From assembly GCA_041660065.1 (NCBI GenBank), contig JBAZXC010000001.1:328535-392534 (forward strand): 64,000 nt of DNA, in the 5' to 3' direction. The notes under the pieces are model-generated. The model was given only the letters and a program-made list of their open reading frames with translations, did no database searches and was not told where the DNA came from. Shown here piece after piece: positions 5,698 to 52,616 of this stretch. The DNA comes from Parcubacteria group bacterium. GTDB lineage: Bacteria; Patescibacteriota; Minisyncoccia; Moranbacterales; GCA-2747515. The translations under genes and the position numbers were made by a program. Position 1 is the stretch's first letter. Each line of letters starts with the position of its first letter.

Positions 5698-5770
5698 CGT
5701 TATGAAAAATATCGCTTCGCTCATTTTTCATAACGTGCGCGAATATGCGAAGAGGGCTCAGCAATACATA
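5683..5770 (+). repeat. Promoter-repeat family copy 3 (partial: palindrome + left arm of the 21-bp inverted repeat)
   Basis: CTTCAGATAT…GTTATGAAAAATATCGCTTCGCTCATTTTTCATAACGTGCGCGAATATGCGAAGAGGGCTCAGCAATACAT is near-identical over ~75 nt to 3350-3430. Confidence 0.6.
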
Positions 5771-5875
5771 ACACTGGATATCAGGTTCCGTAAAAAGAAA
5801 TTATTATAGTTTTTTGTTAAAAAACGTAATACTAATATCAACGTACTGACATTAGGAGGATTCATTATGAGTCAA

Positions 5876-6025
5876 GATGGGGATGATAAAATCATCAACG
5901 AAGAGTTAGACAGACTTGAATCTGAAGGTAAAGATGTTGATGATCTACGAAAGTTTTTGCTCGATAAAGACAGAGGCAACTCTTTGGTTGATCCAGAGCT
6001 AGAAAAATACGGATGCTTTGACTAA
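5876..6025 (+). CDS. small acidic hypothetical protein (49 aa; 52 aa if a G-run at 5876-5881 is miscounted)
   Basis: Strong RBS TAGGAGGAT at 5852-5860. The ATG at 5866, which has ideal spacing, is out of frame by one G in a G5 run. A perfect rho-independent terminator follows. Confidence 0.3.
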   Translation, partial: DGDDKIINEELDRLESEGKDVDDLRKFLLDKDRGNSLVDPELEKYGCFD

Positions 6026-6041
6026 GCACAAATGCACAACC

Positions 6042-6086
6042 AAGCCCTGTTTATGAAAATATATAAACAGGGCTTGAATCTTATTT
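6042..6086 (+). terminator. Rho-independent terminator
   Basis: 13-bp perfect stem AAGCCCTGTTTAT / ATAAACAGGGCTT followed by a T-rich tract. Confidence 0.7.
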
Positions 6087-6352
6087 AAGAACGCTATAAT
6101 AATTTCTTTTATTCCATTCAAATATTTGATATTATTTATAAATAATATCAGGGGTATCAAAAACTTTTGATACCGAGAAATATTTTGCAATATCCGCTTC
6201 ACTCATTTTTCATAATACCGAATAGCTGGTTACACAGAAAAAAAATCACAAATATCCTTTCATTTTTAAATAGCCCTTTTTTGAAATTCTTTGAAAAAAG
6301 TCCCCAGCAGAAATAGAATCTGCCAGGGACAAGACGTGGGCTTGCGCGCTGT

Positions 6353-6566
6353 TCACAAAAAAACAGAACGCAGTTCGCCAAATGTGTTTGATCCGCTGCT
6401 TGACGACACTGATGAAAGAACGATCGGAATGAAGATGGGGAGTAACTGCGACATTGGCGTTACATACACCATCGCTTCAGCAGGCACAAAATGTGGCAAG
6501 ACAGTAACGTTGATAATTGCTACCAACGTGTTCCAAACCGCAATCACGAGAAATATTTGTCTCATA
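6353..6566 (-). CDS. small hydrophobic membrane protein (71 aa)
   Basis: RBS AGGAGGG directly upstream of ATG 6566. MRQIFLVIAVWNTLVAIINVTVLP… is highly hydrophobic. The longer tracked ORF (to 6757) runs into the repeat and is unlikely. Confidence 0.3.
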
Positions 6567-6681
6567 TAACCCTCCTTGTATAGTATGTCAGCAGGAAATC
6601 CACTGAACCGTGCATCGTAGCATATTTCAAAGCTTTTGTCCATAGGCGTTTCAAAAAATTTAAAATAAAGACTTATGATAA

Positions 6682-6818
6682 GGAAAATATTTGCAATTTT
6701 CATATCTCGCTCACCCACGTTGCGCTTTGGTAAATCAATGCTTGGTGATATAATCAAAATAATTGGATATTGAAGTTTTGGCCGATATGCACAGGTGCAA
6801 CTTCAGATATTTGAAAAC
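6682..6818 (+). repeat. Promoter-repeat family copy 4 (operator-like palindrome + extended -10 promoter), upstream of the GNAT gene
   Basis: AAGGAAAATATTTGCAATTTTCATATCTCG…TTGCGCTTTG…TGATATAAT at 6746-6754. ~85% identical to 3218-3358. Confidence 0.6.
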
Positions 6819-6843
6819 GTCAATTGAAATTTAATCATCAAAC

Positions 6844-10819: not shown

Positions 10820-12028
10820 CTATTTTACGATTATTTTTACAAAAAAGTGTTTACCGATCTTCATCACTTTGCCATTATCATCAGCGGTCAATACGCAGTT
10901 ACTGTCAGTAACCTTTTCCCCGTCGATCGACACGCCACCTTGTGCGATCTTCCGTCGTGCGTCACCTTTACTTTCCGCACCGCCACAGGAAACCATGTAA
11001 TCCACAAGACTCATTAAAACACTGCACGCGCACTCTTGCACATCTTCGGGAATTTCTTTTTTGGAAAATGTGTTGATGAAATATTCCTGCGCTTTTTGCG
11101 CCGCATCCTCTCCATGAAAGATCCGCACCAGTTCATGTGCCAGTAGGATCTTTGCATCGCGCGGATTTTCCATTTGCATATACTCCTCCACTTTTTCCAT
11201 GTCTATACGCGTACACCCGACAAAAAGCGGTCGCAACATGCCATCCGATTGCGCCATGATCGCGCCAAAGAGGTCTTGAGCACTTAGATCGAGAAATACC
11301 CCCGTACTGTTTGACTTGGACATAAGCGTGCCCGTTTTTTCATCGGCGATCAGTGTTGTCGCGATCACAAATTTATCTTTCCCTTTCAATTTTTGCATCA
11401 ATGTCCGTCCGGCAAGCGCGTTAAAGATCTGATCCGTTCCACAGAGCTCCACATCCACATCCATCGCCACACTATCATAGCCCTGCATCAGCGGATACAA
11501 AAACTCATGGAGATAAATCGGGCGCTCCTCTTGTATGCGCTTGTCAAACATATCGCGCTCAAGCATTTGTTGCACCGTGAAATTACTTGCGAGTTCCAAC
11601 GCTTCCGCAAAATTCAACTTGCCGAGCCATGCGGAATTATATCTGATCTGAAACGGGTTTTCTTTATCGTCAAAATCTGCGATATTTTTTACCTGATCTT
11701 TCCACAGTGCAAAATTCTCTTGCACTTGCTCAGGTGTTTGTTTGACGCGCGCAGATGATTTGTCCGTTGGGTCGCCGATCATACCAGTAAAATCACCAAT
11801 GAGAAAGATCACCTCATGCCCCAGATTGCGTAAATCCTCCAATACCATGAGCCCTTGTGCGTGCCCCAAATGCAATGATTTTGCCGTTGGATCAAACCCC
11901 ATATAAAAACGCATCTTTTTGCCAGAAAGCAATTGATCACGAAATTCCTGCTTGGTCGGGAAAAACTGCGACAGCACCCCGCGATCAAGAATACGATCAA
12001 CCTGTGCCTCGATATCTTTATTTTTCAT
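10820..12028 (-). CDS. tyrS: Tyrosine--tRNA ligase
   Basis: GFDPTAKSLHLGH (HIGH), GDPT, a KMSKS-like motif LMSKS, and a C-terminal S4 RNA-binding domain (ARRKIAQGGVSIDGEKV). Confidence 0.9.
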   Translation of the reverse strand: MKNKDIEAQVDRILDRGVLSQFFPTKQEFRDQLLSGKKMRFYMGFDPTAKSLHLGHAQGLMVLEDLRNLGHEVIFLIGDFTGMIGDPTDKSSARVKQTPEQVQENFALWKDQVKNIADFDDKENPFQIRYNSAWLGKLNFAEALELASNFTVQQMLERDMFDKRIQEERPIYLHEFLYPLMQGYDSVAMDVDVELCGTDQIFNALAGRTLMQKLKGKDKFVIATTLIADEKTGTLMSKSNSTGVFLDLSAQDLFGAIMAQSDGMLRPLFVGCTRIDMEKVEEYMQMENPRDAKILLAHELVRIFHGEDAAQKAQEYFINTFSKKEIPEDVQECACSVLMSLVDYMVSCGGAESKGDARRKIAQGGVSIDGEKVTDSNCVLTADDNGKVMKIGKHFFVKIIVK

Positions 12029-12095
12029 AATTTTTCACGTAAAATTAGCCAATATATACTCTCATACTACCAATTTACCACTGGAACTACAAGTA

Positions 12096-12124
12096 TTGAC
12101 AATTTGTCTTTTTTGTGATATAAT
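12096..12124 (+). promoter_or_regulatory. Sigma70-type promoter TTGACA-17-TGtGATATAAT for the 12158 gene
   Basis: TTGACA at 12096-12101 and TATAAT at 12119-12124 with a TG extended -10 element. Confidence 0.65.
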
Positions 12125-18829: not shown

Positions 18830-18885
18830 GTTGCATTTAAAACTTATGCTCCTGTAATTATATCGCTTTGACTTTTATAGACTTC

Positions 18886-18919
18886 ATTTACCAGTCCGTA
18901 GCTTTAGCGAAGGATGGCT
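18886..18919. repeat. Short repeat ATTTACCAGTCCGTAGCTTTAGCGAAGGATGGCT (copy 1 of 3)
   Basis: Near-identical copies at 40704-40738 and 50798-50831. Confidence 0.6.
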
Positions 18920-20299
18920 TTATAACTCATTATACACCTTCCAAATATCTCCCGCTCCCATTGTAATAAACACATCACCATCAGACAAATATTTTTTCAT
19001 CCATGCACCCAACTCCACGATCGTTGGCAGATGTTGTGCTTTGCTCGGAGAGAGATCATTGATTGCTTCCACAACACGCATTGCGTTGATATTTCCTTTC
19101 TTTTCTCGTGCACTGCCATAAATATCCAACACGACCACTTGATCCGCAAAAGCAAGCGCCGCAGCAAAATCCGACAGCAATGCTTCCGTACGCGTAAATG
19201 TATGCGGGTGAAATGCCACAATGATCTTTTTGCCGGGGAAAACTTCTCGCGTGCCACGCAATGTTTCTACGATTTCCTTTGGATGATGCGCGTAATCATC
19301 GACCAAGATTGCCCCATTATATTCGCCTCTGCGCTCAAAGCGCCGTGCCGTACCTGCAAATTGCGCAACGCCCTCCGCAGTTCTATACGCATCGCCTGTC
19401 AAAAGAAATGCCAGCAACCATGCAGCAGTCGCATTTGCGGCATTATGCGCACCATACAATTGTGTCATGATCTCGTATTCTTTTTCCTCAAAAAGCACCG
19501 TGATCTTTTGTCCATGTGCATCGATACTACGCCGCATGATCACACAATCATTTTTTACGTCTTCTCCATAAAAAACAACACGGCAATCTGCATGCGCCGC
19601 CACTGCACACACATCACCCTGATCACCACACGCTACCAAAATTCCATCCTGCGGAATGCGCGCAACAAACACGCCAAATACATCACGATATGACTCCACG
19701 TCCGCAAAAAAATCAGGATGGTCATAATCCACACTTGTAAGGATCACATCATGTGGCTGATACAACGCAAGCTTATTTTGATATTCATCCGCTTCAATGA
19801 TCAAAATGTCATCCCCAGTTACATACGCACCGCCATTCCACGCGGAAATTTGCGACCCTACAATAACTGTCGGCTTGACATCGGTCGCGATCATCGCAAA
19901 AGCTGTCAGCGCGGTCGTGGTCGTTTTACCGTGTGTGCCACACACCGCAATTGTCGACATCTCCGCCGTAAGAGCGCCAACTGCTTCCGGATACGAATAA
20001 ATTGTAATCCCCTTTTCTTTTGCAGCAATAATTTCCACATTATCAGTGCCATTTAGCGCTGTCGTATATACGACAAAATCAATGTGATCAGTAAGATGTG
20101 CTACATCAAAAGTATCGTACACAACAATACCATTTTGCACGAGCATTTCATGATAAAAACCATCACCCGTATCCACGCCACTCACATCGTATCCTTTTTT
20201 TGCATACACTACAGCGAGAGCCGATGTGCCAGCGCCACCAATTCCAACGATATACACTTTTTTCATAAATTCCTTTTTTACAATTTCAGCCACATCCAT
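18920..20299 (-). CDS. murC: UDP-N-acetylmuramate--L-alanine ligase
   Basis: VYIVGIGGAGTSALAVVYAKKGYDVSG plus Mur ligase middle and C-terminal domains. Confidence 0.9.
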   Translation of the reverse strand: MDVAEIVKKEFMKKVYIVGIGGAGTSALAVVYAKKGYDVSGVDTGDGFYHEMLVQNGIVVYDTFDVAHLTDHIDFVVYTTALNGTDNVEIIAAKEKGITIYSYPEAVGALTAEMSTIAVCGTHGKTTTTALTAFAMIATDVKPTVIVGSQISAWNGGAYVTGDDILIIEADEYQNKLALYQPHDVILTSVDYDHPDFFADVESYRDVFGVFVARIPQDGILVACGDQGDVCAVAAHADCRVVFYGEDVKNDCVIMRRSIDAHGQKITVLFEEKEYEIMTQLYGAHNAANATAAWLLAFLLTGDAYRTAEGVAQFAGTARRFERRGEYNGAILVDDYAHHPKEIVETLRGTREVFPGKKIIVAFHPHTFTRTEALLSDFAAALAFADQVVVLDIYGSAREKKGNINAMRVVEAINDLSPSKAQHLPTIVELGAWMKKYLSDGDVFITMGAGDIWKVYNEL

Positions 20300-38612: not shown

Positions 38613-38798
38613 TTATTTGAAAAGCACATCTTTGATAATGCCACCAAAGATATAATCCAATATCCCGAGGAAAAGTGCGATTGCCACACTGATCACGACA
38701 ACCAGCGTCGTGTATTGGATCGTTTGTTCACGCGTCGGCCATGACACTCTGCGCAATTCGCCATAGGCCTCCCGCAAAAATTGTTTGATTTTCTCCAT
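38613..38798 (-). CDS. secE: Preprotein translocase subunit SecE (single-TM, 61 aa)
   Basis: Immediately upstream of nusG. EAYGELRRVSWPTREQ… followed by one TM helix. Confidence 0.8.
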   Translation of the reverse strand: MEKIKQFLREAYGELRRVSWPTREQTIQYTTLVVVISVAIALFLGILDYIFGGIIKDVLFK

Positions 38799-38990
38799 AT
38801 TTGTTGGATTTTAAAAAAGCCCCCTCGGGCTCTATATACACATTCATACTATCGCTTTTTCCAATTTTTGTCAAATACCTTTTTAGGGAGTAGACATTGG
38901 GTGGTAGGTGATAGAAGTTAGGTTGTAGGGGGTGAGGGTCAGAGGTTAGGTGATAGCCGGTTGTTACTCTCGCGCTCGCATGTCGGTCCA

Positions 38991-39150
38991 TTGTCATCCT
39001 GTCGCGCCCTGAGCATTTAGGGATCTACACTGGGAATCCACTTGTCATCCTCAGCTGGACTGGGGATCCATAAGCTCTCAATGATCTTTTTTGGTTTCTC
39101 TATATTCCCAATAATCTACGCCCTACCACCCTAATTTCTACACCCTCAGA
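38991..39150 (+). repeat. Left ~160-bp direct repeat flanking the AAA ATPase cassette
   Basis: ~85% identical to 40535-40700 (TTGTCATCCT…GGGGATCCATAA…CAATGATCTTTTTT…TACGCCCTACCACCC). Confidence 0.65.
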
Positions 39151-39177
39151 AAACGAGAATCATTGTCTTCAAATTTC

Positions 39178-40422
39178 CTATACGATCCAATGTGGCAAAA
39201 GATAAATTTGCGTTTTGCTTTTCTTTTCAATTTCAATTGAACTCTCATTGGCAATTACTGCACATCGTGGATTATATTCTCTGATAAACGATGTCAACGA
39301 TTTTGATATTTTGGCACTGGAGAAACCGCTTTTACTTTCCAAGGGAATTTTTTCATTATTAGCGTCGATCACAAAATCCACTTCAGCACCAGTTTTGGTA
39401 CGCCAAAAATTCATTTCCATGTCCTTTTTAATAAATTGGGTGGCAATGAAATTTTCATACAAAAAACCTTTATCCAGCCTATTCTCCAACTTATTAAAGT
39501 CATCAATGACGTAATTGCGCAGTCCCGTATCAAAAAAATACACTTTTGGGTTTTTCACAATTTCCGTTCTCTTATTTACAAAAAATGGTCGAATTGTTTT
39601 GCAAATGAATGTTTTTTCCAAAATGTTTATATATTTCTTAAGGGTTATATAATCATATCCGGAGATGTTTCCCAACTCGTTATAGGCAATCAGTTGACCA
39701 ATTTGTACCGAAAGTGCACGCAATAACCTGGAAAGTCTAAAATCATCAGCCAAACCAAGCAAGTCCTTAACGTCTCGTAAGAAATAGGTATTATAAATAT
39801 TTTTGAGGATCATTTCCTTTTCTTTCATATCTTCAGCCAAGACGACACGCGGGTATCCTCCCCAGATAATAAATTCCTCCAAAATATTATTCATTTGCCC
39901 ATTGATATTTTTTGAGACATCAAGTGTGCCGACTTTATTATTTTTCAAATCAACTATTTTTTTATTTTCCTCATAAATTTTAAAAAGGTTTCCGTCTCTA
40001 AAGCGCAAAAATTCTTCAAAATCCAGTTGATACAAATTGAAAACAAAAACGCGTCCAACCAAATATTTAATGGCATGGATTGTCAAATCGATAGTTGAGG
40101 AGCCGGAAATAATAATCTTGTTTTCCGGAAAAGTATCGAACAAATATTTCAATAGTTTCCCCCCATTTTTGGAATATTGAAACTCATCGATAAAAATATA
40201 TTTATGATGAAAATATTTTTTTGCAAACCCTTTGATATCCTGCTCAAAAAGTTCCAGATCATCTCGGTCTTCAAAATTCAAAAAAATCGAATTTTCCAGT
40301 TGCCCCTGAATCTTTTTGAGAAGAGTTGTCTTTCCGGATTGCCGCGGACCGACAATTGCCAAAATTTCTCTTTTTCCCAAATAGTCTAGAATGAGAGGCT
40401 CAATTTTTCGCTCTATATACAT
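39178..40422 (-). CDS. AAA+ ATPase with C-terminal DUF4143 domain (COG1373 family)
   Basis: Walker A motif GPRQSGKTTLLKKI. Size and layout typical of AAA_14 + DUF4143 proteins. Confidence 0.8.
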   Translation of the reverse strand: MYIERKIEPLILDYLGKREILAIVGPRQSGKTTLLKKIQGQLENSIFLNFEDRDDLELFEQDIKGFAKKYFHHKYIFIDEFQYSKNGGKLLKYLFDTFPENKIIISGSSTIDLTIHAIKYLVGRVFVFNLYQLDFEEFLRFRDGNLFKIYEENKKIVDLKNNKVGTLDVSKNINGQMNNILEEFIIWGGYPRVVLAEDMKEKEMILKNIYNTYFLRDVKDLLGLADDFRLSRLLRALSVQIGQLIAYNELGNISGYDYITLKKYINILEKTFICKTIRPFFVNKRTEIVKNPKVYFFDTGLRNYVIDDFNKLENRLDKGFLYENFIATQFIKKDMEMNFWRTKTGAEVDFVIDANNEKIPLESKSGFSSAKISKSLTSFIREYNPRCAVIANESSIEIEKKSKTQIYLLPHWIV

Positions 40423-40534
40423 ATATTTCGATACTTTTTACTAAAATTATATTACAATATCATTTTAGCAAAGCTAGAATTTTATGTCAAACAGAGAATA
40501 AAAACGACAGCTAGATTGGTGCATACCACCCCAA

Positions 40535-40700
40535 TTGTCATCCTACCACGCCCTGAGAATTTAGGGAGCTCGACTGGAGATTCCATTGTCATCCTCAGCT
40601 CGACTGGGGATCCATAATTTTTCAATGATCTTTTTTAGTTTCGCTAGATTCCCAATCATCTACGCCCTACCACCCAATTTCTACTCCCTAATTTCTACTC
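40535..40700 (+). repeat. Right ~160-bp direct repeat flanking the AAA ATPase cassette
   Basis: See 38991-39150. Followed by the ATTTACCAGTCCGTAGC…GGATGGCT repeat (40704-40738) and CTAATTTCTAC short repeats (40740-40795), which are inverted copies of 38878-38952. Confidence 0.65.
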
Positions 40701-40773
40701 TCTATTTACCAGTCCGTAGCTTCAACGAAGGATGGCTCTACCCCCTAATTTCTACCACCTAAAAATCTACTCC

Positions 40774-42423
40774 CTAATTTCCTTTCGCGATCGGCATTTC
40801 GATGATGAATTCCGAGCCTTTGTCGACGCCGTCTGATTTGGCGTAAATGTGCCCACCCTGTGATTCGATCAAGTTCTTGCCCACATACAATCCCAATCCC
40901 GATCCATCGGTATAGACTTTGGTCGAATCCGTCCCGCGTGAAAACTTGGCAAAAAGTGTCTTGAGCGATTCTTCGGAGATGCCCATGCCGGAATCCTTTA
41001 TGGTCACACGCACGACCTCACCATCTTTTTCTGCGATAACATGCACAAATCCCTCCTTGGTATATTTGATCGCATTGTCCATCAAATTTGAGATCACTTC
41101 CCGTAATTTGGATTTGTCCGCTTTGATCGCCGGTAATTGTCCATCCGGTGTCTGGATCTCCAGCTCCAATTTCTTGTCCTGCGCGCGCAAGATGAACATG
41201 TCTTTGAGCTCATTCAAAATATCCTCCACATGCACATCATCTTCCAAACGATATTCCAGTCGCCCCGACTCGATGCGCGTGAGATTGAGCATATCCTCCA
41301 CAAGTTGGATGAGTCGTTCATTGGCGAGAAAGATCTTGTTGAGTGCATCATCCGTCTTGTCCGTATTCTCTCCATACGCCCCCTCGAGAATGAGAGAGAT
41401 ATATCCTTTGATCGCCGTAAGCGGCGTGCGCAATTGATGCGACGCGATCGAGATAAATTCCGATTTTGCATTGTCCAATCGCTTGAGCTCGGCATTGGCA
41501 CGCGCCAGATCCTTGGAGAACTTCATCAACCGATCCTTCTGCATCTCTTCACGTTTCACACTCTTGACCACCCCATAACCGATGATGCACACCAACACAA
41601 ACGCGATACTATTGAGCACTCTGTTAGTAGGATTACCGATAAAAAAGAACTGCGCCCCGATGAGAAAAATGAGCGACCACACCAAAGCCTGCGCCCGCGC
41701 AAGCTTGATATCCATTGCACCGTATTGAACGATCAAATATGCTAACGTAACTATAAAAAACAATATTCCAAACAGTCCATACATCTGAATTTCGTATGTG
41801 ATGTATCCCAACCAAACCAATATACCAGCAACAAAATCAGACACAATATAGATAAACACACTCATGCCCAGAATTGCAATTTTTTTGCGATTATCACCAG
41901 CAGCGCGAAAGTATCGATTAGTCAAAAGAGCAACAACCCACAAAGAAATCACAGCTGTTAATATAAACGCATACGCATTATAATACACACCTTCCGAGGC
42001 TTCACAGTTTACCGCATTGAAATTCACCAAACTCCACTCTGACGACATAAAAACAATCAATGGCAACAACAAAGCGCCCCACACTATTTTACTCCGCACA
42101 TGTGCATCTTTACCATCGACAAAAACATAGATAAAATATAACCCTAAGATTTGGTACATGGAAGAAAATATATTAAACACAGACCACCAAAACATAATCT
42201 GAGAACTGTCCACGCTGAGCCATGTCATCAGATCCGCAACAACCCACAACGCGAACGACATGCTGATCCCGCATAAAATATATCCGAGCAACGATCTACT
42301 TTTAAGTAATACAAAACCACCCATAAACAAGGCAATGATCATCGTGGGAATATGCGTATACCATAACAGATGAGGAACTACTATATGACACGATTCAATA
42401 TTTGTCACAAAATTATAATCCAT
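40774..42423 (-). CDS. Sensor histidine kinase with ~8-TM N-terminal sensor domain
   Basis: HisKA H-box ISIASHQLRTPLTAIKGY and HATPase_c N/G1/G2 boxes. No response regulator gene within the window. Confidence 0.85.
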   Translation of the reverse strand: MDYNFVTNIESCHIVVPHLLWYTHIPTMIIALFMGGFVLLKSRSLLGYILCGISMSFALWVVADLMTWLSVDSSQIMFWWSVFNIFSSMYQILGLYFIYVFVDGKDAHVRSKIVWGALLLPLIVFMSSEWSLVNFNAVNCEASEGVYYNAYAFILTAVISLWVVALLTNRYFRAAGDNRKKIAILGMSVFIYIVSDFVAGILVWLGYITYEIQMYGLFGILFFIVTLAYLIVQYGAMDIKLARAQALVWSLIFLIGAQFFFIGNPTNRVLNSIAFVLVCIIGYGVVKSVKREEMQKDRLMKFSKDLARANAELKRLDNAKSEFISIASHQLRTPLTAIKGYISLILEGAYGENTDKTDDALNKIFLANERLIQLVEDMLNLTRIESGRLEYRLEDDVHVEDILNELKDMFILRAQDKKLELEIQTPDGQLPAIKADKSKLREVISNLMDNAIKYTKEGFVHVIAEKDGEVVRVTIKDSGMGISEESLKTLFAKFSRGTDSTKVYTDGSGLGLYVGKNLIESQGGHIYAKSDGVDKGSEFIIEMPIAKGN

Positions 42424-42439: not shown

Positions 42440-43237
42440 TCATTTTATCACAAGTTCATAATCAAAGCGATCTTTCACATATTTTTTCACGATTTCTTTT
42501 TGTGATACCGCACCACACCACCAATATAGATCATCCAACACTTCTGACGGTGTTAATTGACAAATAAGCGGCTTTACACCAAAAATTTCCTCTACTTTTG
42601 TAAAACTCGGCAACAAAATTTCTCTCACAAAATTCCCCTCATCACCTTCTACAACATAATTTTCAAAAAGAATGCCGTGACATAAAAAGAGGGATAAAAA
42701 GTACAAATAATAATATTCTGTCAAATTTCGTGTCCGATAAAACCAATCAGAAAAATCGTACACATTTCCGACTAAATCCGGCATCACCATATCCGTCAGG
42801 TCGTGATGAAAATCTAATAACGATTGTCCCCACACTGTTTTTACATCACACAACCGCTTACCTTCTTCGGTATTGTAATTAATGATCTTTGTGTAAGGCA
42901 CATTTGCAAAACTCTCCAGTCCAAATTCATCGCAAAAATACAATTTGCCCAGTAGATACTTAGGAATGCTCTTTGCAACAAATTTGTCCTTTGTGAATTC
43001 CAAGCATAATGGCTCTAATTTGATTTCTTTTGCCAACTGCAAAAAACGTTCAGTATCATGTCCCGGAGTAATCACATATTGATTCGTGATCGCGCGCGGA
43101 CCATTTTTAAATAAAAATGTAATATCATCACCAAGAAATTCTTCTACTTTGGCACGCAAAACAACATCATTCCATCTTTTGTGAATTTCCATCTTTGCAT
43201 CCTCCAGTGATGTATAAATGCTATAATCTTCTTTCAT
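42440..43237 (-). CDS. Tandem-paralog family protein A (unrecognised ~255-aa family)
   Basis: Shares (I/V)(E/H)(R/K)RW…, T(V/L/M)WG(E/Q)…DFHH, HG(V/I)L(F/C)(E/D)N(F/Y), FG(V/M)(S/K)PL(I/V) and YWWC motifs with the next three genes. Start trimmed to MKEDYS (43237) by alignment. Confidence 0.6.
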   Translation of the reverse strand: MKEDYSIYTSLEDAKMEIHKRWNDVVLRAKVEEFLGDDITFLFKNGPRAITNQYVITPGHDTERFLQLAKEIKLEPLCLEFTKDKFVAKSIPKYLLGKLYFCDEFGLESFANVPYTKIINYNTEEGKRLCDVKTVWGQSLLDFHHDLTDMVMPDLVGNVYDFSDWFYRTRNLTEYYYLYFLSLFLCHGILFENYVVEGDEGNFVREILLPSFTKVEEIFGVKPLICQLTPSEVLDDLYWWCGAVSQKEIVKKYVKDRFDYELVIK

Positions 43238-43257
43238 TTTTTTATCATACAAAAAAT

Positions 43258-44019
43258 CTATACATGTACATCTTCCATGACATCCTTTGGATAACACCAC
43301 CAATACACATCCATCACCTCTTCCTCCGGTTGTGCGGGAATAATAAGTGGGGATACACCAAATGTATCAACGATTTCATCAAAGGCCGGATTAAATATCT
43401 CTCGTGTAAATTCTTCCTCACCCGCCACAACGTCCGTAAAATTTTCAAAGAGTACGCCATGAGCCACAAATAACGCCAAAAATTTTTTGTAATACTGATC
43501 AATGGATGTTTTCATATGATTTTCAGCGAACCATTCAAAATCATCAAAAATTTCCACCTGCGGAACATATTTCTGTGCAATTCGATGATGAAAATCAACC
43601 AACTTTTCTCCCCACAACGTCACAATCTCATCAAATCTCTTTCCTTGCGCCTGCGCAAGATCAACGATCAATTTATTCTGACTGATAACATCATGATTTT
43701 TATCATACCCTTTAAAAAAACGTGGTTTTACAAGAAGCATTTTATCTTCATTGTTCGTTACAAAAATATCATGCACACCCTCTAATCCCAGTGGCGCAAG
43801 ATGTAATTCCTGTGCCATCTTCACAAAATGACGCAATTCAAAATCCGGTGAAATAATATTCCGTGACAATACAGCGCGCGGCTCATGCTGAAACGGCTCT
43901 GGGATTTCTCCGCTCAAATATTCACGCACACGCTCTTTGAGAGCATCATCTTTCCATCTCCTCTGAATTTCTACCTTTGCATCTTCTATTGTGGTGTAAA
44001 AACTCCTTTTTTGATCCAT
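43258..44019 (-). CDS. Tandem-paralog family protein B
   Basis: See 42440. MDQKRSFYTTIEDAKVEIQRRW…TLWGEKLVDFHH…VAHGVLFENF…YWWC. Confidence 0.6.
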   Translation of the reverse strand: MDQKRSFYTTIEDAKVEIQRRWKDDALKERVREYLSGEIPEPFQHEPRAVLSRNIISPDFELRHFVKMAQELHLAPLGLEGVHDIFVTNNEDKMLLVKPRFFKGYDKNHDVISQNKLIVDLAQAQGKRFDEIVTLWGEKLVDFHHRIAQKYVPQVEIFDDFEWFAENHMKTSIDQYYKKFLALFVAHGVLFENFTDVVAGEEEFTREIFNPAFDEIVDTFGVSPLIIPAQPEEEVMDVYWWCYPKDVMEDVHV

Positions 44020-44027
44020 ATAATTTT

Positions 44028-44801
44028 TTATTTTTTAATACCTTTCATTTTCTCATCCAATATCTCCTGCATCTGCGCATCAAAATACCACTGATCTGTT
44101 TCCATTTCTTCTTGCGTAAAAAGTGGCACAATTAATGGATAGACCCCAATCTTTTCTTTGACATATTCTATCGCAGGATAACTCACTTCCTCCAAAAAAC
44201 CTTTTGCCGCATCTGGATCATCGTCGTACTCCAAGACTTCGCACGACACGCCAAAGACGGTCACAATCGCATAGAACGCTTTGTAGTATTCCTTGGCTCG
44301 CTCTCCATTGTGCACAAGCCAATCGGACATATCTTTCATTTCAGGCTTTTCTTGATGCATTGTGAAAAATGCATTGTGAAAAAATTCAATCAAATTTTCA
44401 TTCCACATCGTTTGTAATCCTTTTAATTTTTTTCCATCACTGGCAAAATAGTCTATGATATGTGTGGAATGAATGATTGGTTCATTATTTTTGTTCATTT
44501 TTTCGCACACATCAATACGACCCCAACGCAATTTATCAGGGTTTACTGTTGTAAATTTATCATCATAATACTCAAATACAAACGGCTTGAGTTGCAACTG
44601 TTCCGCAATATGCATAAACCGTCGCGTCTCTGAATCTGGGATGCAAATCTGACGAAACAACACTGCACGAGGCTCCTGTAAAAAAACTTCTGGCACATCA
44701 CCATGCAAAAAATCTACGACACGTTTCTTTAGATCTTCATCCTGCCAGCGCCTCTGAATTTCTTCTCGCGCCTCTTCAATTGACATATTATATTTTCCCA
44801 T
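44028..44801 (-). CDS. Tandem-paralog family protein C
   Basis: See 42440. …EIQRRWQDEDLKKRV…CEKMNKNNEPIIHST…QWYFDAQMQEIL. Confidence 0.6.
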   Translation of the reverse strand: MGKYNMSIEEAREEIQRRWQDEDLKKRVVDFLHGDVPEVFLQEPRAVLFRQICIPDSETRRFMHIAEQLQLKPFVFEYYDDKFTTVNPDKLRWGRIDVCEKMNKNNEPIIHSTHIIDYFASDGKKLKGLQTMWNENLIEFFHNAFFTMHQEKPEMKDMSDWLVHNGERAKEYYKAFYAIVTVFGVSCEVLEYDDDPDAAKGFLEEVSYPAIEYVKEKIGVYPLIVPLFTQEEMETDQWYFDAQMQEILDEKMKGIKK

Positions 44802-44816
44802 ATTGCTTTCTTAATA

Positions 44817-45596
44817 TTACACCAATCTATTAGATGTTTTTTTCATTTTCTCATTCAATATCTCCTGCATCTGCGCATCAAAATACCATTGGTCACATTG
44901 TTCAATTTCTTCATCTGAAAAAATTTGAACTACCAGCGGTTTCATGCCAAATTCTTGTGTTACATGATCAAATGCGGGTCGTACCACCTCATAAAAAAAA
45001 TTATTCTCGTCACCACCGTCTGCACCAAAGTTATCACACAATACGCCATGTGCAATACACAACGCAAAAAATTGTTTATAGTATTCATTTGCCTTTTTAC
45101 CATGACACACAAGCCATGCAGACAAATCATAGATTTCTGGTCGTGCCATACCCATCGCATCAAATGATGCGTGAAAAAAATCCACAATAGGTTCACCCCA
45201 TGTTGTAGCGATATCCGCCAGTGACTTATTATCATTTGCAATAAAATCAATGATGCGTGTCGAACGAATGATCGGCTCGTTGTTTTTGTTCATTTTTTCA
45301 CACACATCCAATCTACCATACTGCAATTTATCGGCATTACGCGTACAAAACTTATCTGCAAGATATTCCAAATTGATCGGCAATAAACTCATTTTTTGAG
45401 AACATTCCAAAAATCGTTTTGTCTCTGACCCGGGGATGCAAATATTGCGAAAAAGAATGCTCCGCGGTTCACGCAAAAACACCTCGGGGATATCACCTTG
45501 CAGATATTCGCGCACTTTTGTTTTTACCTCCTCATTTTGCCAACGTTTTTGAATTTCCACTGATGCGGTTTCTGGTGTTACATAAAAATCGGACAT
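44817..45596 (-). CDS. Tandem-paralog family protein D
   Basis: See 42440. ~60% identical to protein C over most of its length. Confidence 0.6.
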   Translation of the reverse strand: MSDFYVTPETASVEIQKRWQNEEVKTKVREYLQGDIPEVFLREPRSILFRNICIPGSETKRFLECSQKMSLLPINLEYLADKFCTRNADKLQYGRLDVCEKMNKNNEPIIRSTRIIDFIANDNKSLADIATTWGEPIVDFFHASFDAMGMARPEIYDLSAWLVCHGKKANEYYKQFFALCIAHGVLCDNFGADGGDENNFFYEVVRPAFDHVTQEFGMKPLVVQIFSDEEIEQCDQWYFDAQMQEILNEKMKKTSNRLV

Positions 45597-46708: not shown

Positions 46709-46807
46709 GACATCACCTCTTTGGTTTTGGTTAAAGTTGTAAACGAACTACGAAATCCCATTATACACCAAAAAAGCCCCTTTGTCAATCCCCCACACAC
46801 CAAAAAC

Positions 46808-46915
46808 CGCATAAAAACTCACTTTTTATGCAAAAACAACCTCAAAATCTACCATCTTTGAGAATTTAAAAAGCCATAGTCAGCTTATACAGCTTTATTA
46901 TCAAAAACTGCATCA
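46808..46915 (+). repeat. ~105-bp direct repeat (left) flanking the Nudix gene pair
   Basis: ~88% identical to 48403-48510. Contains the hairpin GCATAAAAA-CTCAC-TTTTTATGC. Confidence 0.6.
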
Positions 46916-47010: not shown

Positions 47011-47517
47011 ATGCACCCACTAGATAAACTATGCCGTCCTGTAGTCACTGCGATCATCAGGAAGAACATCGGCAACATACCTCACATCCTTATGCAAACA
47101 CGGTGGAAACCAAAAGAAGATCCCCTCTACAGTGGCACGCTGGAATTGCCGGCTGGACATTTGGATGCGTTCGAGGATATACATGAAGCTCTAAAACGTG
47201 AGGTTTTCGAGGAAACCGGTTTGCATGTGCGTGTCATTTCACCGGATACGCGAACAAAAACTTTCTCACCACGTGAGGACGGTGCATTTGGTTTTCAACC
47301 GTTTTGTGCTCATCAACAGATCAAAAATGGCTTACCCTGGATCGGATTTGCCTTTTTATGCGAAGTTGAAGATGGTGAATTTGTCGCGCAAGAAAGTGAA
47401 ACACGCGACCAAAAATGGCTGCCGGAATCTGACATCGAAATGATGGTCAAAAATGCTCCTGAAAAAATATTTACATTTCACCTTGCGGCACTCGCATACT
47501 ATTTTGAGAAAAAATAA
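47011..47517 (+). CDS. Nudix hydrolase
   Basis: Nudix box GHLDAFEDIHEALKREVFEETGL. Confidence 0.8.
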   Translation: MHPLDKLCRPVVTAIIRKNIGNIPHILMQTRWKPKEDPLYSGTLELPAGHLDAFEDIHEALKREVFEETGLHVRVISPDTRTKTFSPREDGAFGFQPFCAHQQIKNGLPWIGFAFLCEVEDGEFVAQESETRDQKWLPESDIEMMVKNAPEKIFTFHLAALAYYFEKK

Positions 47518-47636: not shown

Positions 47637-48104
47637 ATGCAAAAAATTAAATGTAAAAATAATTTCGACAAATTAGTCGAATTGCCGATCAACAAATTTG
47701 TTTTTAGGCCGAGTGTATATGGAATAATATTGGATAAGGGTGAAGCGGTTTTCATGAAAAATAAAAGTAATGGTAAACTCTGGTTCCCAGGCGGAGGCAT
47801 TGAAATCGGGGAAACTCTGGAGGTGGCATTAAAAAGAGAAATTATGGAAGAAACCGGTCTCAAAGTCAACATGGGTGAGATGACCCTATTCAAAGAAAAT
47901 TTTTTCTACTACGAGCCGTTGGATGAGGCTTATCATGCTTTCCTATTTTTTTTCATATGTAAAGCTAAAAATAAAAACCTTTCTGACTCCACCGACTTGG
48001 AATCAAAAAATCCAAAGTGGATGAAAATCAAAGAAGTCAAGAAAAATCAAATTAGCGATCTAGCCGATGATTTGTATAAATTATTACAGAAGATCGAGGA
48101 TTAG
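47637..48104 (+). CDS. Nudix hydrolase
   Basis: Nudix box GGGIEIGETLEVALKREIMEETGL. Confidence 0.75.
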   Translation: MQKIKCKNNFDKLVELPINKFVFRPSVYGIILDKGEAVFMKNKSNGKLWFPGGGIEIGETLEVALKREIMEETGLKVNMGEMTLFKENFFYYEPLDEAYHAFLFFFICKAKNKNLSDSTDLESKNPKWMKIKEVKKNQISDLADDLYKLLQKIED

Positions 48105-48340: not shown

Positions 48341-48402
48341 ATGAATAATGATATTATACTATCGTTTTTCATATGAATTTTGATATTTTAACACGCCAAT
48401 TC

Positions 48403-48510
48403 GCATAAAACCTCACTTTTTATGCAAAAACAACCTCAAAATCTACCATCTTTTAAAATTTAAAAAGCCATGGTTAGCTTATGCGGATTTATCATCAAAA
48501 AAGATATAAT
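48403..48510 (+). repeat. ~105-bp direct repeat (right) flanking the Nudix gene pair
   Basis: See 46808-46915. Confidence 0.6.
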
Positions 48511-50730: not shown

Positions 50731-50797
50731 AATCTCCCTCAGTCCCTCTTTACAAAAGAGGGATATTTTAAATCTCAAATCAGATTTCCTACTTTCT

Positions 50798-50880
50798 ATT
50801 TACCAGTCCGTAGCTTTAGCGAAGGATGGCTCTACCAATCTACTAATCTACCAGTCTAAATGTCTACCAATCTAACAAAC
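50798..50880. repeat. ATTTACCAGTCCGTAGCTTTAGCGAAGGATGGCT repeat (copy 3) followed by TCTACCAATCTA-type short tandem repeats
   Basis: Identical core to 18886-18919 and 40704-40738. Followed by CTACCAATCTACTAATCTACCAGTCTAAATGTCTACCAATCTA. Confidence 0.6.
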
Positions 50881-52616
50881 TACACTCCCGTATGTTGCAA
50901 TTCGTGGAGTTTTTTGTATACACCACCGTGACGGATGAGCTCATTGTGGTCACCGCGTTCAATGATGCGCCCGTTGTCTACCACGAGGATCATATCCGCT
51001 TTACGCACCGTGCTCAGTCGGTGCGCGATCACGATCGTCGTGCGTCCGCGCATCACTTCTTCCATTGCATCTTGAATGTATTTTTCTGACTCACTATCGA
51101 GTGCACTTGTTGCTTCATCGAGGATAAGGATCCGCGGATCGCGCAAGATCGCACGCGCGATCGACAAACGCTGGCGTTGACCGGCAGACAGTTTGGCACC
51201 GCGATCTCCGATCAATGTGTCGTAATTTTTGGGCAGTTTGTGCACGAACTCATGGCAATGCGCCTTGCGTGCGACACGTAAAATTTCATCCGGTCGCGCG
51301 CTCTTGCGTGAATATGTGATATTGCTTTTGATCGAGTCGTGAAACAGTCCATTCTCCTGCGACACGATCGCGATCTGGCGGCGCAAGTCTTCCAATCTGA
51401 TGTTGCGTACATCGATCCCATCAATGCGCACTGCACCCTCTGTCGGTATGAGAAAACGCGGGATCAGATCCACGAGCGTCGTCTTGCCTTGTCCGCTCTT
51501 CCCCACGATCGCCACCATTTGTCCCGGCTGGATCGTGAAATTCACGTCTTTCAATATCTCTCGCTCTCCATAGGAGAAATGTACATGGTCAAACTCGATC
51601 TTGCCATCGCAACGATCCATGTGCTCGGCGTGGAGATCGAGATATTTTTCCTCCGGTACGCGGTAGATCTCTTCGGCGCGCGCGATCGTGACTAGGCCTT
51701 CTTGCAATTCTTTGTAATTACTTCCAAGCGTTTGGATCGATGCGGATGCCATGTTGATATATGCCAGCAACATAATAAACTGCCCGATCGTGATCATATC
51801 CCGCGTGATAAAATACAACCCTGTAAGAAAAAGCAAAAGGAATCCTGTAGAAAAAACCACATGCTGCCAAAACTGCAATTTCATGAGAAATCCTGTGTAA
51901 CGATCGAATTGACGATAGATCTTCTCATATTTTTCACAGTTTTGCAGGTATTCCGCTTCCTCCGTGCCATGTGCTTTGATCACAAACACGTTTGGCGTAC
52001 GTTCAAATACGTCGCCGTAGATATCTTCCAGTTTTTCACTGATATCCTCGTTATACGTAATGATCGGCTTTGTCTTGATGATCGTGATAATGATAAACAC
52101 GCCCACAAACACAAGATAAATTAACGCCAACTCCCACCGAATCCACATGATCACACAAAAGGCCAAAAATGATGTGAGAATATGTGGCGCACTCTGTAAT
52201 ACGCCATCATTGATCACACGATCCATATATGCGTCAGCACGATCAAATCTCTCGATATATTCCCCCGTCTTATTTTCCCTGTGAAATGACAATGGGAGAC
52301 GGATCAAGTGGCGCACATATCGCGTGAACATATCAATGCCAATTTTATAACCGATCCGCACACCCCACCGCACACGCATACGCATCGCCCATTCACTCAC
52401 GAGACTGAGGATATACCATCCACCGATAAGGACGAGTACGATCAGAGAAAAACTCTTCTCTCCGACCACGATGTCTATCGACTTTCCATAAAGAAGTGGC
52501 AGGATCAATTGGATGCCATTTTCCACAAGCACAAAAAGCAAGGCCACTACAAACATCTTTTTGTGCGGTTGAATATACTTTTTGATCGTTGAAAAATGTG
52601 TTTTTACATAACTCAT
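50880..52616 (-). CDS. ABC transporter permease/ATP-binding protein (MsbA-like exporter)
   Basis: Six-TM domain, Walker A GKSGQGKTT, ABC signature LSAGQRQR, Walker B ILILDEATSALD. Confidence 0.9.
   Translation of the reverse strand: MSYVKTHFSTIKKYIQPHKKMFVVALLFVLVENGIQLILPLLYGKSIDIVVGEKSFSLIVLVLIGGWYILSLVSEWAMRMRVRWGVRIGYKIGIDMFTRYVRHLIRLPLSFHRENKTGEYIERFDRADAYMDRVINDGVLQSAPHILTSFLAFCVIMWIRWELALIYLVFVGVFIIITIIKTKPIITYNEDISEKLEDIYGDVFERTPNVFVIKAHGTEEAEYLQNCEKYEKIYRQFDRYTGFLMKLQFWQHVVFSTGFLLLFLTGLYFITRDMITIGQFIMLLAYINMASASIQTLGSNYKELQEGLVTIARAEEIYRVPEEKYLDLHAEHMDRCDGKIEFDHVHFSYGEREILKDVNFTIQPGQMVAIVGKSGQGKTTLVDLIPRFLIPTEGAVRIDGIDVRNIRLEDLRRQIAIVSQENGLFHDSIKSNITYSRKSARPDEILRVARKAHCHEFVHKLPKNYDTLIGDRGAKLSAGQRQRLSIARAILRDPRILILDEATSALDSESEKYIQDAMEEVMRGRTTIVIAHRLSTVRKADMILVVDNGRIIERGDHNELIRHGGVYKKLHELQHTGV

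What the first reader, a model, noticed from the sequence alone, without database searches (positions are those of the whole stretch)
38878..40795. DUF4143 AAA ATPase carried in a repeat-bounded cassette between secE and the histidine kinase
The ATPase gene (39178-40422) is flanked by ~160-bp direct repeats (38991-39150 and 40535-40700, ~85% identical). Outside these lie CT-rich short-repeat arms that are inverted copies of each other. 38878-38952 is GGTGATAG/GTTAGG-rich and is the reverse complement of the CTACC/CCTAATTTCTAC motifs at 40738-40795. Direct repeats nested inside inverted arms around a single cargo gene are transposon- or cassette-like. COG1373 ATPases are frequently mobile or defence-island associated.
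Basis: seen in the sequence. Interest (0 to 1): 0.55.

Follow-up and report, generated by a model that had tools for sequence, protein, structure and literature searches.

The report
Defence-type ATPase gene inserted between repeats
A stand-alone ATPase–nuclease gene of a candidate anti-phage family has been dropped into the gap between a sensor kinase gene and secE in a tiny-genome (CPR) bacterium and is flanked by a real 158-base duplication. It looks like a transposase-free gene insertion rather than a transposon, which makes it a modestly interesting example of a known pattern.

Summary
The core observation holds. The ATPase gene (39178-40422, minus strand) is flanked by direct repeats at 38990-39146 and 40534-40689 (158 nt, 87% identical). 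These are the only two copies in the window and in 1.44 Mb of related loci.

The "inverted arms" exist, but they are arrays of a 14-nt CTAC unit. The same unit also forms the inner end of both direct repeats, so they are not transposon-style terminal repeats.

The gene is an insertion. Two syntenic relatives (L097, NusG 98.9% aa; L096) have the kinase directly followed by secE. They carry no ATPase, no direct repeat and no CTAC array. A third relative (L099) carries a different gene in the same slot.

The cargo is an intact AAA_14+DUF4143 protein, PADLOC candidate defence family PDC-S01. Its Walker A/B and PD-(D/E)XK residues are conserved, and it has its own promoter and a conserved leader. 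Its closest homologues (80-89% aa) sit in unrelated contexts, and two of those have their own unrelated flanking repeats.

The window holds no transposase or integrase. The repeats have host-like GC (45% against 34% for the gene).

Best reading: transposase-free insertion with duplication of local spacer, as described for restriction-modification genes. The defining test for that class (repeat present once at the empty site) was not met with the relatives available. Interest is modest.

The parts
38613..38798 (-). secE, downstream neighbour of the insertion slot
   Evidence: Pfam SecE E 1.7e-20. 95% aa identical to L097.
38846..38876 (-). secE promoter (TTGACA-17-TAGTAT). This is the left edge of the sequence shared with the empty-site relatives.
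   Evidence: Promoter scan 10/12. Window 38770-38876 is 97% identical to L097 and 90% to L096, and similarity stops at 38876.
38880..38952 (-). Array of about five degenerate 14-nt CTAC units in inverted orientation.
   Evidence: Inverted matches to 40652-40691, 40738-40765 and 39115-39131. 26 nt at 96% to 40666-40691. Motif enrichment 6 against 0.29 expected.
38953..38989 (.). Unique 37-nt spacer between the inverted CTAC array and the left direct repeat
   Evidence: No repeat match. Only weak similarity to 40501-40533 in the pairwise alignment.
38990..39146 (.). Left direct repeat (DR-L). Contents: module A 38991-39041, module B 39042-39092 with an 8-bp hairpin at 39047-39067, an A/T tail, and CTAC units at 39115-39146.
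   Evidence: 158 nt at 87% identity to 40534-40689, E 2e-49. GC 45.9%. Folding energy no better than shuffles, z about 0.
39147..39177 (.). 31-nt junction between DR-L and the ATPase stop codon
   Evidence: Not repeated and not shared with homologous loci.
39178..40422 (-). Cargo gene: 414-aa AAA_14 + DUF4143 ATPase-nuclease of candidate defence family PDC-S01, apparently intact
   Evidence: Pfam AAA_14 7e-29 and DUF4143 5e-37. PADLOC PDC-S01 1.7e-89. AlphaFold model pLDDT 90.5 with AAA+ fold matches. Walker A GPRQSGKT, Walker B IDEF, and D349 / E362-S-K364 conserved. GC 33.7% against 41.4% for the window.
40423..40497 (-). The ATPase's own promoter (-35 at 40485-40490, extended -10 at 40462-40467) and conserved leader, with palindrome CTAAAAT/ATTTTAG at 40441-40447 / 40462-40468
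   Evidence: Promoter scan 11/12 with TG. The leader is conserved in six different genomic contexts: 72-86% identity against 43-61% at third codon positions.
40498..40533 (.). 36-nt junction between the ATPase promoter and the right direct repeat
   Evidence: Not shared with homologous loci. Contains TACCACCCCAATT, a CTAC-like unit (family D13).
40534..40689 (.). Right direct repeat (DR-R), same module order as DR-L, hairpin at 40591-40611
   Evidence: Terminator-like hit on the + strand. GC 44.9%.
40692..40742 (.). Copy of a separate dispersed 51-nt element (core ATTTACCAGTCCGTAGCTTYARCGAAGGATGGCTCTACC)
   Evidence: Copies at 18874 (80%) and 50786 (92%), each immediately 3' of a minus-strand gene. 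Absent from the syntenic spacer of L097.
40737..40781 (+). Three forward 14-nt CTAC units running into the kinase stop codon (40774-40776).
   Evidence: TRF period 14, 3.1 copies. Kinase C-terminus and TAG stop are shared with L096 and L098, and similarity ends at the stop codon.
40774..42423 (-). Histidine kinase, upstream neighbour of the slot
   Evidence: Pfam HisKA and HATPase_c. Only 73-79% aa identical to relatives whose flanking genes are 94-99% identical.

Best explanation
The gene at 39178-40422 is a horizontally acquired, self-contained unit made of its own sigma-70 promoter, a conserved leader and the ORF. It encodes a PDC-S01-type AAA+ ATPase fused to a PD-(D/E)XK nuclease. The unit was inserted into a variable slot between the histidine kinase and the secE-nusG-rplKA cluster of a Moranbacteria (CPR) genome.

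The 158-nt direct repeats are duplicated local spacer DNA created in connection with the insertion, that is, a long target duplication. They are not the ends of a transposon. The 'inverted arms' are arrays of a lineage-specific 14-nt satellite that populates this spacer. No element-encoded recombinase is involved.

Shown: the insertion polymorphism, the repeat, the cargo identity, and the absence of mobility genes in the 64-kb window. Inferred: insertion by the host's break repair or recombination after DNA uptake, with staggered or resected ends filled in to give the duplication. The repeats then leave the gene excisable or amplifiable by homologous recombination.

The protein itself most likely acts as an NTP-driven nuclease against foreign nucleic acid. 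The leader palindrome overlapping the -10 box suggests repression. Both points are inference from domain content.
For: - **Empty sites.** L097 (NusG 98.9% aa, 92% DNA) and L096 have the kinase stop followed by a 186/266-nt spacer and then secE. They have no ATPase, no direct repeat and no CTAC array. Similarity to the window stops at the kinase stop codon and resumes at the secE promoter.
- **Same slot, other cargo.** L099 has a different 252-aa gene in this slot.
- **Homologues elsewhere.** The closest homologues (89, 84, 82, 80, 66% aa) lie in five unrelated contexts. They share only the stretch from the -35 box to the stop codon.
- **Composition.** Gene GC is 33.7%, the repeats 45-46%, the window 41.4%.
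- **Repeat copy number.** The repeats are unique to this locus in the window and in 1.44 Mb of related DNA. They do not accompany the homologues.
- **Other loci have their own repeats.** Two other ATPase contexts have unrelated flanking direct repeats next to the unit: L084, about 47 nt, abutting both ends; L091/L092, 20 nt, perfect. Flank-against-flank score >=40 occurs in 3 of 6 ATPase contexts against 3 of 291 other genes, Fisher p = 9e-5.
- **Timing.** Repeat divergence (13%) is below the third-position divergence between the window and L097 (20-34%), which fits a duplication after their split.
- **No mobility genes.** No transposase or integrase among 48 window proteins. No tRNA target.
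- **Parallel case in the window.** Two NUDIX genes are flanked by a 105-111-nt, 87% repeat. Its hairpin part occurs once in the corresponding spacer of L099.
- **Published precedent.** Restriction-modification genes inserted with long, variable target duplications and no mobility genes (PMC2853133).
Against: - The defining test failed. Neither empty-site spacer aligns with the repeat, so I cannot show that the repeat pre-existed once at the target.
- The comparators are imperfect. The kinase is only 73-79% identical while its neighbours are 94-99%, so the kinase plus spacer may be a replaced block.
- Three of six ATPase contexts (L082, L100, and L090 at best borderline) show no significant flanking repeat.
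- The repeats do not abut the conserved unit. They lie 31 and about 36-43 nt from it.
- The spacer is prone to tandem duplication on its own (51-nt modules, 14-nt units). A pre-existing duplicated spacer therefore cannot be excluded.
- The rest of the source genome (469-kb contig, NCBI protein MFA5986079.1) could not be searched for more copies.
- One PDC-S01 representative gave no protection against T4, T5 or T7 in E. coli (bioRxiv 10.1101/2024.09.26.614923). The defence role is therefore unproven.
Confidence: 0.5

Rival explanations
1. The two 158-nt copies belong to a lineage-specific intergenic repeat family, either MITE-like or a local tandem satellite. The family pre-existed in duplicate in this spacer or colonised both sides later. 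Its position around the ATPase says nothing about how the gene arrived.
For: - The spacer is built of repeats at several scales: 14-nt CTAC units, 51-nt modules, and a 51-nt dispersed element with three copies in the window.
- 38880-39148 resembles a small element with CTAC arrays as imperfect inverted ends (pair I12).
- These small repeats are young and lineage-specific, being absent from the syntenic spacers of L097.
- The empty sites carry no single copy of the repeat.
Against: - Only two copies exist in 64 kb plus 1.44 Mb of relatives.
- Both copies are in direct orientation, at similar short distances (31 and about 40 nt) from the two ends of the conserved gene unit.
- The right copy lacks an inverted left end.
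- Flanking direct repeats are enriched at other loci of the same gene family, with unrelated sequences.
Confidence: 0.24
2. A small circular DNA carrying the ATPase plus one copy of the 158-nt segment integrated by single-crossover (homologous or site-specific) recombination with a resident copy. This would leave attL/attR-like imperfect direct repeats.
For: - Imperfect direct repeats (87%) of this length are typical of integrations in which the element brings its own version of the target. This rests on established knowledge and on the discussion in PMC2853133.
- The module A part of the repeat is more diverged than the module B part, as expected for a hybrid of two sources.
Against: - No integrase was found in the insert or the window.
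- No tRNA or other conserved attachment target is present.
- The repeat is not found next to any homologous ATPase.
- Both repeat copies have host-like GC, unlike the cargo.
Confidence: 0.1
3. First reader's model. The whole block 38878-40795 is a transposon-like cassette whose inverted CTAC arms are its termini, mobilised in trans by an enzyme encoded elsewhere.
For: - The entire block from 38877 to 40773 is missing from the empty sites.
- A perfect 12-nt inverted pair (38883-38894 / 40766-40777) lies within a few bases of those boundaries (pair I24).
Against: - The boundaries coincide with the stop codon and the promoter. That is simply where constraint ends, because the spacers of L096 and L097 do not align with each other either.
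- The right 'terminus' overlaps the kinase's native TTAG, which is shared with L096 and L098.
- There is no target-site duplication outside the arms.
- The arms are tandem arrays that also occur inside the block.
- No second copy of the block or arms exists anywhere.
- Homologues lack the arms.
- No transposase is present in the window.
Confidence: 0.07
4. The ATPase is ancestral at this site and was lost in the relatives.
For: Direct repeats would allow deletion by homologous recombination. Gene loss is common in CPR lineages (general knowledge).
Against: - Deletion between the repeats would leave one repeat copy, but L096 and L097 have none.
- None of 80 Moranbacteria and related species has the ATPase or the kinase within 10 kb of secE.
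- The gene's GC is 8 points below the window average.
- L099 has a different gene in the slot.
Confidence: 0.05

Closest known systems
Insertion with long target duplication of restriction-modification genes (Nobusato et al. 2000, cited from memory; Furuta, Abe & Kobayashi 2010, PMC2853133)
   Same: - A nuclease-containing defence-type gene is inserted as a small unit with no transposase or integrase.
- It is flanked by direct repeats far longer than transposon target duplications. Published cases range from 45 to about 420 bp, some imperfect.
- Insert GC is lower than that of the genome.
- Repeat lengths vary between loci (here 158, about 47 and 20 nt).
   Different: - The cargo is a single ATPase-nuclease gene (PDC-S01), not an R-M pair.
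- The host is a CPR bacterium.
- The defining evidence is missing here: the repeat does not align once with the empty site. By the authors' own scheme this locus would be scored as 'substitution'.
PDC-S01 / COG1373 (AAA_14 + DUF4143) candidate defence genes
   Same: - Domain architecture and HMM match (E 1.7e-89).
- Intact ATPase and PD-(D/E)XK motifs.
- A single-gene unit located in a variable region next to other candidate defence genes (SoFic/PDC-S04-like and PDC-S07-like).
   Different: Nothing atypical in the protein. The family's function is unvalidated, and the one published phage test of a member was negative.
Composite transposons, MITE-bounded cassettes and integron cassettes
   Same: One cargo gene lies between repeated sequences, with some inverted-repeat symmetry at the outer edges.
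   Different: - No transposase or integrase.
- No short fixed target duplication.
- No attC-like folded site (fold z about 0).
- The repeats are not multi-copy and do not travel with the cargo.

Membership tests
PDC-S01 / COG1373 ATPase-nuclease | AAA_14 P-loop domain followed by DUF4143, both above the Pfam gathering scores | tested here: met
   AAA_14 100.8 bits (cut-off 27). DUF4143 127.4 bits (cut-off 28.1)..
PDC-S01 / COG1373 ATPase-nuclease | Match to the PADLOC PDC-S01 profiles over the full length | tested here: met
   PDLC04789 E 1.7e-89, residues 1-393 of 414.
PDC-S01 / COG1373 ATPase-nuclease | Intact Walker A/B and PD-(D/E)XK catalytic residues | tested here: met
   GPRQSGKT, IDEF, and D349 / E362-S-K364 are present. 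They are invariant or nearly invariant in 46 homologues. DUF4143 is listed as PD-(D/E)XK in PMC3424549.
PDC-S01 / COG1373 ATPase-nuclease | Protects against phage | not testable with these tools
   Candidate only (PMC12988326). One representative was negative against T4, T5 and T7 in E. coli.
Insertion with long target duplication (Furuta et al. 2010 criteria) | The inserted genes are absent from the syntenic site of a related genome | tested here: met
   L096 and L097 have the kinase directly followed by secE.
Insertion with long target duplication (Furuta et al. 2010 criteria) | Direct repeats longer than 30 bp flank the insert, and the insert is under 20 kb | tested here: met
   158 nt at 87%, 1544 nt apart.
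Insertion with long target duplication (Furuta et al. 2010 criteria) | No mobility gene in or beside the insert | tested here: met
   The only gene in the insert is the ATPase. No transposase or integrase among 48 window proteins.
Insertion with long target duplication (Furuta et al. 2010 criteria) | The repeated sequence aligns, as a single copy, with the empty-site genome | tested here: not met
   No similarity between the L096/L097 spacers and the repeat. The comparators may be too diverged or may carry a replaced kinase-plus-spacer block. This is therefore a failure to confirm, not proof of absence.
Insertion with long target duplication (Furuta et al. 2010 criteria) | The repeat is otherwise unique in the genome | tested here: inconclusive
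   Unique within the 64-kb window and 1.44 Mb of relatives. The remaining roughly 400 kb or more of the source genome could not be searched.
DNA transposon / composite transposon / MITE | Transposase present, or for a non-autonomous element, multiple copies with the same ends | tested here: not met
   No transposase in the window. No other copy of the arms or repeats.
DNA transposon / composite transposon / MITE | Terminal inverted repeats at the exact ends, flanked by a short target-site duplication | tested here: not met
   The inverted similarity comes from tandem 14-nt arrays. The right end overlaps the native kinase stop region. The flanks GGAAA and AAAGG are not a duplication.
Integron cassette / integrase-mediated island | Integrase gene and an att/attC site (a folded imperfect palindrome or a tRNA 3' end) | tested here: not met
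   No integrase. No tRNA in the window. No Rfam hit. The repeat folds no better than shuffles.

The most novel reading that the evidence does not exclude
PDC-S01 ATPase-nuclease genes might be transposase-free selfish units. Their own PD-(D/E)XK nuclease, or the breaks it provokes, would drive their insertion and generate long, variable-length target duplications. In CPR bacteria, which lack classical mobile elements, this would be a main route by which defence genes enter slots next to core operons. The enrichment of unrelated flanking repeats at three of six loci of this clade, and a second repeat-bounded defence-like cassette 6 kb away, would be its footprints.
Probability: 0.12. Interest if true: 0.7.

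Novelty: new member of a known kind. Interest (0 to 1): 0.33.

Why it matters
[quoted passage not shown] That mode has so far been documented for restriction-modification systems. The extension would be to one of the most abundant but unvalidated candidate defence families (PDC-S01) and to CPR bacteria. CPR genomes are tiny and poor in classical mobile elements.

The locus also offers a concrete polymorphism for study: the slot is filled in the window, filled with a different gene in L099, and empty in L096 and L097, right next to the secE-nusG-rplKA cluster. It could be followed in metagenomic time series or read data.

None of this changes what is known about the protein's function.

Tried and rejected
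- **tRNA and Rfam scans of the window:** nothing. The repeats are therefore not a tRNA-derived att site or a known RNA.
- **RNA folding of both repeats and the 51-nt element:** energies no better than shuffles. A structured RNA or attC-like site is rejected.
- **Genome-collection scan with NusG:** 80 Moranbacteria and related loci, none with the ATPase, the kinase or the repeat near secE. These species are too distant to serve as empty sites, but they show the upstream side of secE is not conserved.
- **Metagenome-collection scan with the ATPase:** only 3 loci, and the source contig was not among them.
- **Three viral-contig pattern scans** (repeat core, 51-nt element, ATPase leader): no hit.
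- **blastn of the whole spacer-plus-gene block against plasmids and phages:** no match.
- **Protein-database search with the 58-aa ORF read across the right repeat,** as a proxy for finding other repeat copies: no candidate. This is uninformative, because such ORFs are rarely called.
- **PDB sequence search with the ATPase:** no hit. The fold search gave only generic AAA+ relatives.
- **Kinase homologue L098:** the contig ends 123 nt after the kinase, so it says nothing about the slot.
- **Resemblance between repeat module B and the kinase terminator hairpin of L096 in opposite orientation:** the blastn match (16 nt, 87.5%, E 0.28) is not significant, so I did not use it.


Full report
**What is there**

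The window comes from a Candidatus Moranbacteria / Parcubacteria (CPR) metagenome-assembled genome. The ATPase is NCBI protein MFA5986079.1 on a 469-kb contig.

On the minus strand the gene order is:
- histidine kinase, 40774-42423
- AAA_14+DUF4143 ATPase, 39178-40422
- secE, 38613-38798
- nusG, then rplK, then rplA

The ATPase is flanked by direct repeats at 38990-39146 and 40534-40689. They align over 158 columns at 87% identity (E 2e-49). A profile built from the two copies finds no other copy in the window or in 1.44 Mb of related loci. An independent Logan assembly shows the identical arrangement.

**Anatomy of the flanks**

Each repeat is composite. It holds two 51-nt modules that begin TTGTCATCC, the second of which forms an 8-bp hairpin. 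These are followed by an A/T tail and a run of 14-nt units of the form CTACYNCCYAATTT.

The same 14-nt unit occurs in two other places. It forms an inverted array at 38880-38952, directly upstream of the secE promoter. It also forms a forward array at 40737-40781 that runs into the kinase stop codon.

- The best inverted match of the left arm is to the end of the right direct repeat (40666-40691; 26 nt, 96%).
- The match to the outer right arm is weaker (28 nt, 82%, plus a perfect 12-mer).

Between the right repeat and the outer array lies a copy of a different 51-nt element. It recurs at 18874 and 50786, each time just 3' of a minus-strand gene. At 50831-50883 it is followed by an 8-nt CTACCAAT array.

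None of these small repeats is present in the syntenic spacers of the close relative L097. They are therefore young and lineage-specific. Neither the repeats nor the 51-nt element folds better than shuffled sequence. There is no tRNA or Rfam match in the window.

**The gene is an insertion in a variable slot**

Kinase homologues led to syntenic contigs.

| Locus | Relatedness to the window | Content between kinase and secE |
|---|---|---|
| L097 | NusG 98.9% aa, 92% DNA; L1 98%; ABC transporter 94% | 186-nt spacer, no gene |
| L096 | NusG 96% aa | 266-nt spacer, no gene |
| L099 | kinase 75% aa | an unrelated 252-aa gene |
| L098 | kinase 79% aa | contig ends 123 nt after the kinase |

Similarity between the window and L096/L097 ends at the kinase stop codon. 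It resumes at 38876, the -35 region of the secE promoter (97% over 107 nt to L097). Nothing in the L096/L097 spacers resembles the ATPase, the repeats or the CTAC arrays.

L099 also carries a distant PDC-S01 ATPase in a second slot. In the window that second slot holds a Fic gene and two NUDIX genes, and in L097 it is empty.

None of 80 other Moranbacteria and Patescibacteria species has the ATPase or the kinase within 10 kb of secE.

**The cargo**

- **Family.** The 414-aa protein matches PADLOC's PDC-S01 (E 1.7e-89). This is a single-gene candidate defence family. It is described as an ATPase fused to a PD-(D/E)XK domain, is very abundant, and is prone to transfer between domains of life (PMC12988326; PMC3424549).
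- **Integrity.** Walker A (GPRQSGKT), Walker B (IDEF) and the nuclease residues D349 and E362-S-K364 are present. They are invariant or nearly so in 46 homologues.
- **Structure.** The AlphaFold model is confident (pLDDT 90.5). It matches AAA+ clamp-loader, Orc1 and STAND ATPases in general. No solved close relative exists.
- **Function.** The family's function is unproven. One representative gave no protection in E. coli.

**What moves and what does not**

The closest homologues (89, 84, 82, 80 and 66% aa) lie in five unrelated contexts:
- between ispE and a DUF7695 gene
- after an AbiEii gene
- before a DUF2000 gene
- after hydrogenase-maturation (hyp) genes
- after recJ

Across these contexts the DNA similarity runs from the -35 box, about 75 nt upstream of the ATG, to the stop codon and no further.

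The leader is better conserved (72-86%) than third codon positions (43-61%). It contains a palindrome CTAAAAT-N14-ATTTTAG overlapping the -10 box. It is therefore a functional regulatory region rather than a sign of recent transfer.

The window's repeats and arms occur at none of these loci. The gene's GC is 33.7%, whereas the repeats are 45-46% and the window 41.4%. The repeats look like host spacer, not cargo.

**Are flanking repeats linked to the gene family?**

Two other contexts have their own unrelated direct repeats next to the unit:
- L084 has about 47 nt at roughly 83%, abutting both ends of the unit (2868-2915 / 4236-4280).
- L091/L092 have a perfect 20-mer, 25-27 nt from each end.

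L082 and L100 have none, and L090 is borderline.

As a control, I compared the two 300-nt flanks of 293 genes in the window and 14 related loci. Only five reached the same score (>=40), and two of those are these ATPases. That gives 3 of 6 ATPase contexts against 3 of 291 other genes (Fisher p = 9e-5).

The window also holds a second such case. A 105-111-nt repeat at 87% identity (46797-46907 / 48391-48501) brackets two NUDIX genes with weak PDC-S07 similarity. The hairpin part of that repeat occurs once in the corresponding spacer of L099.

**Interpretation**

The most economical reading is a transposase-free insertion of a promoter-plus-gene unit into a hot slot, accompanied by duplication of at least 158 nt of local spacer.

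This is the pattern Furuta, Abe and Kobayashi described for restriction-modification genes as 'insertion with long target duplication'. Their cases have repeats from 45 to about 420 bp and no mobility genes. They attributed it tentatively to double-strand breakage (PMC2853133).

I do not file the locus as a proven member of that class. The class's defining evidence is that the repeat aligns once with the empty site, and that test was run and not met. A plausible reason is that the comparators are unsuitable. The kinase is only 73-79% identical while its neighbours are 94-99%, so the kinase and its downstream spacer may be a replaced block.

Repeat divergence (13%) is lower than third-position divergence between the window and L097 (20-34%). 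That is consistent with a duplication after the two lineages split.

**Rivals**

- **Pre-existing or independently spreading spacer repeat.** This remains serious because the spacer plainly generates tandem duplications.
- **Campbell-type integration of a circle carrying one repeat copy.** This would explain the imperfect identity but lacks an integrase, a target, and any repeat next to homologues.
This is weakly supported by a 12-nt perfect inverted pair near the block's edges. It is contradicted by the tandem nature of the arms, the overlap with the native stop-codon region, and the absence of a target duplication, a transposase or a second copy.
- **Ancestral presence with loss in relatives.** This is contradicted by the absence of a residual repeat copy in the empty sites and by the gene's composition.

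**Verdict**

The finding is real and the gene is an inserted accessory (defence-candidate) gene. The mechanism is not transposon-like on present evidence. It is a new example, in a new host group and for a new cargo family, of a known but mechanistically unresolved pattern. Interest is modest. It would rise if the source genome and read data show a single-copy repeat at an empty site, or if the repeat enrichment holds across the PDC-S01 family.

Noticed in passing
window 46797-46907 and 48391-48501 (genes 47011-47517, 47637-48104): A second repeat-bounded cassette. A 105-111-nt direct repeat at 87% identity, containing a terminator-like hairpin GCATAAAAMCTCACTTTTTATGC, brackets two NUDIX genes on the opposite strand to their neighbours. 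The genes are weakly PDC-S07-like. The hairpin part occurs once in the corresponding spacer of relative L099 (864-898). The slot is empty in L097 and holds a PDC-S01 ATPase in L099.
   Followed up: partly
window 18874-18924, 40692-40742, 50786-50836: A dispersed 51-nt element (core ATTTACCAGTCCGTAGCTTYARCGAAGGATGGCTCTACC, 80-92% identical) lies immediately 3' of three minus-strand genes: murC, the histidine kinase and an ABC transporter. Two copies are followed by short tandem arrays that start from its terminal CTACC (14-nt units at 40737-40781, 8-nt CTACCAAT units at 50831-50883). It is absent from the syntenic spacer of L097, has no Rfam match and only a weak hairpin.
   Followed up: partly
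window 2599-6820: A dense nest of repeats surrounds small P-loop kinase / zeta-toxin-like genes (3667-4173, 4187-4813). It includes three copies of a 122-nt repeat (2599, 3190, 6650), a 74-nt perfect direct repeat (3357-3430 / 5696-5769), and a 49-nt inverted repeat at 92% (3525-3573 / 5513-5561). It looks like another rearranged accessory region.
   Followed up: no
window 42440-45596; L096 2-1262; L097 5934-6710; L099 3485-5835: Four tandem paralogues of an unknown roughly 255-aa protein (no Pfam hit) lie directly upstream of the kinase. The number seen on each relative's contig differs: at least 2 in L096, 1 in L097, 3 in L099.
   Followed up: partly
window 40774-42423 compared with L097 6821-8437: The kinase is only 73-77% aa identical to L097, while flanking genes (NusG, L11, L1, ABC transporter) are 94-99% identical. 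The kinase is either fast-evolving or has been replaced by a divergent allele. This limits the use of L097 as an empty-site comparator.
   Followed up: partly
L099 7505-8263 and 1048-2196: In this relative the kinase-secE slot holds an unrelated 252-aa gene with no Pfam or PADLOC hit. A distant PDC-S01 ATPase (33% identical, PADLOC E 8e-130) sits in the other variable slot. Neither has flanking repeats.
   Followed up: partly
window 40441-40468 (minus-strand leader of the ATPase): Palindrome CTAAAAT-N14-ATTTTAG overlaps the -10 box. It is conserved, along with the whole roughly 75-nt promoter and leader, in six unrelated genomic contexts, and more strongly than synonymous sites. It looks like an operator for autoregulation.
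   Followed up: partly
L023 487-574 / 998-1085 around gene 575-997; L005 11057-11160 / 11996-12099 around rplA: Other long direct repeats flank single genes in Moranbacteria loci. A perfect 88-nt repeat abuts both ends of a type IV pilin-like gene (its N-terminus reads FTLIELLIVIAIIGILA). A 104-nt AT-rich palindromic repeat lies on both sides of rplA.
   Followed up: no
window 1-64000: ARAGORN finds no tRNA gene anywhere in the 64 kb. From memory, many bacteria have a tRNA-Trp gene just upstream of secE; none is present here.
   Followed up: no
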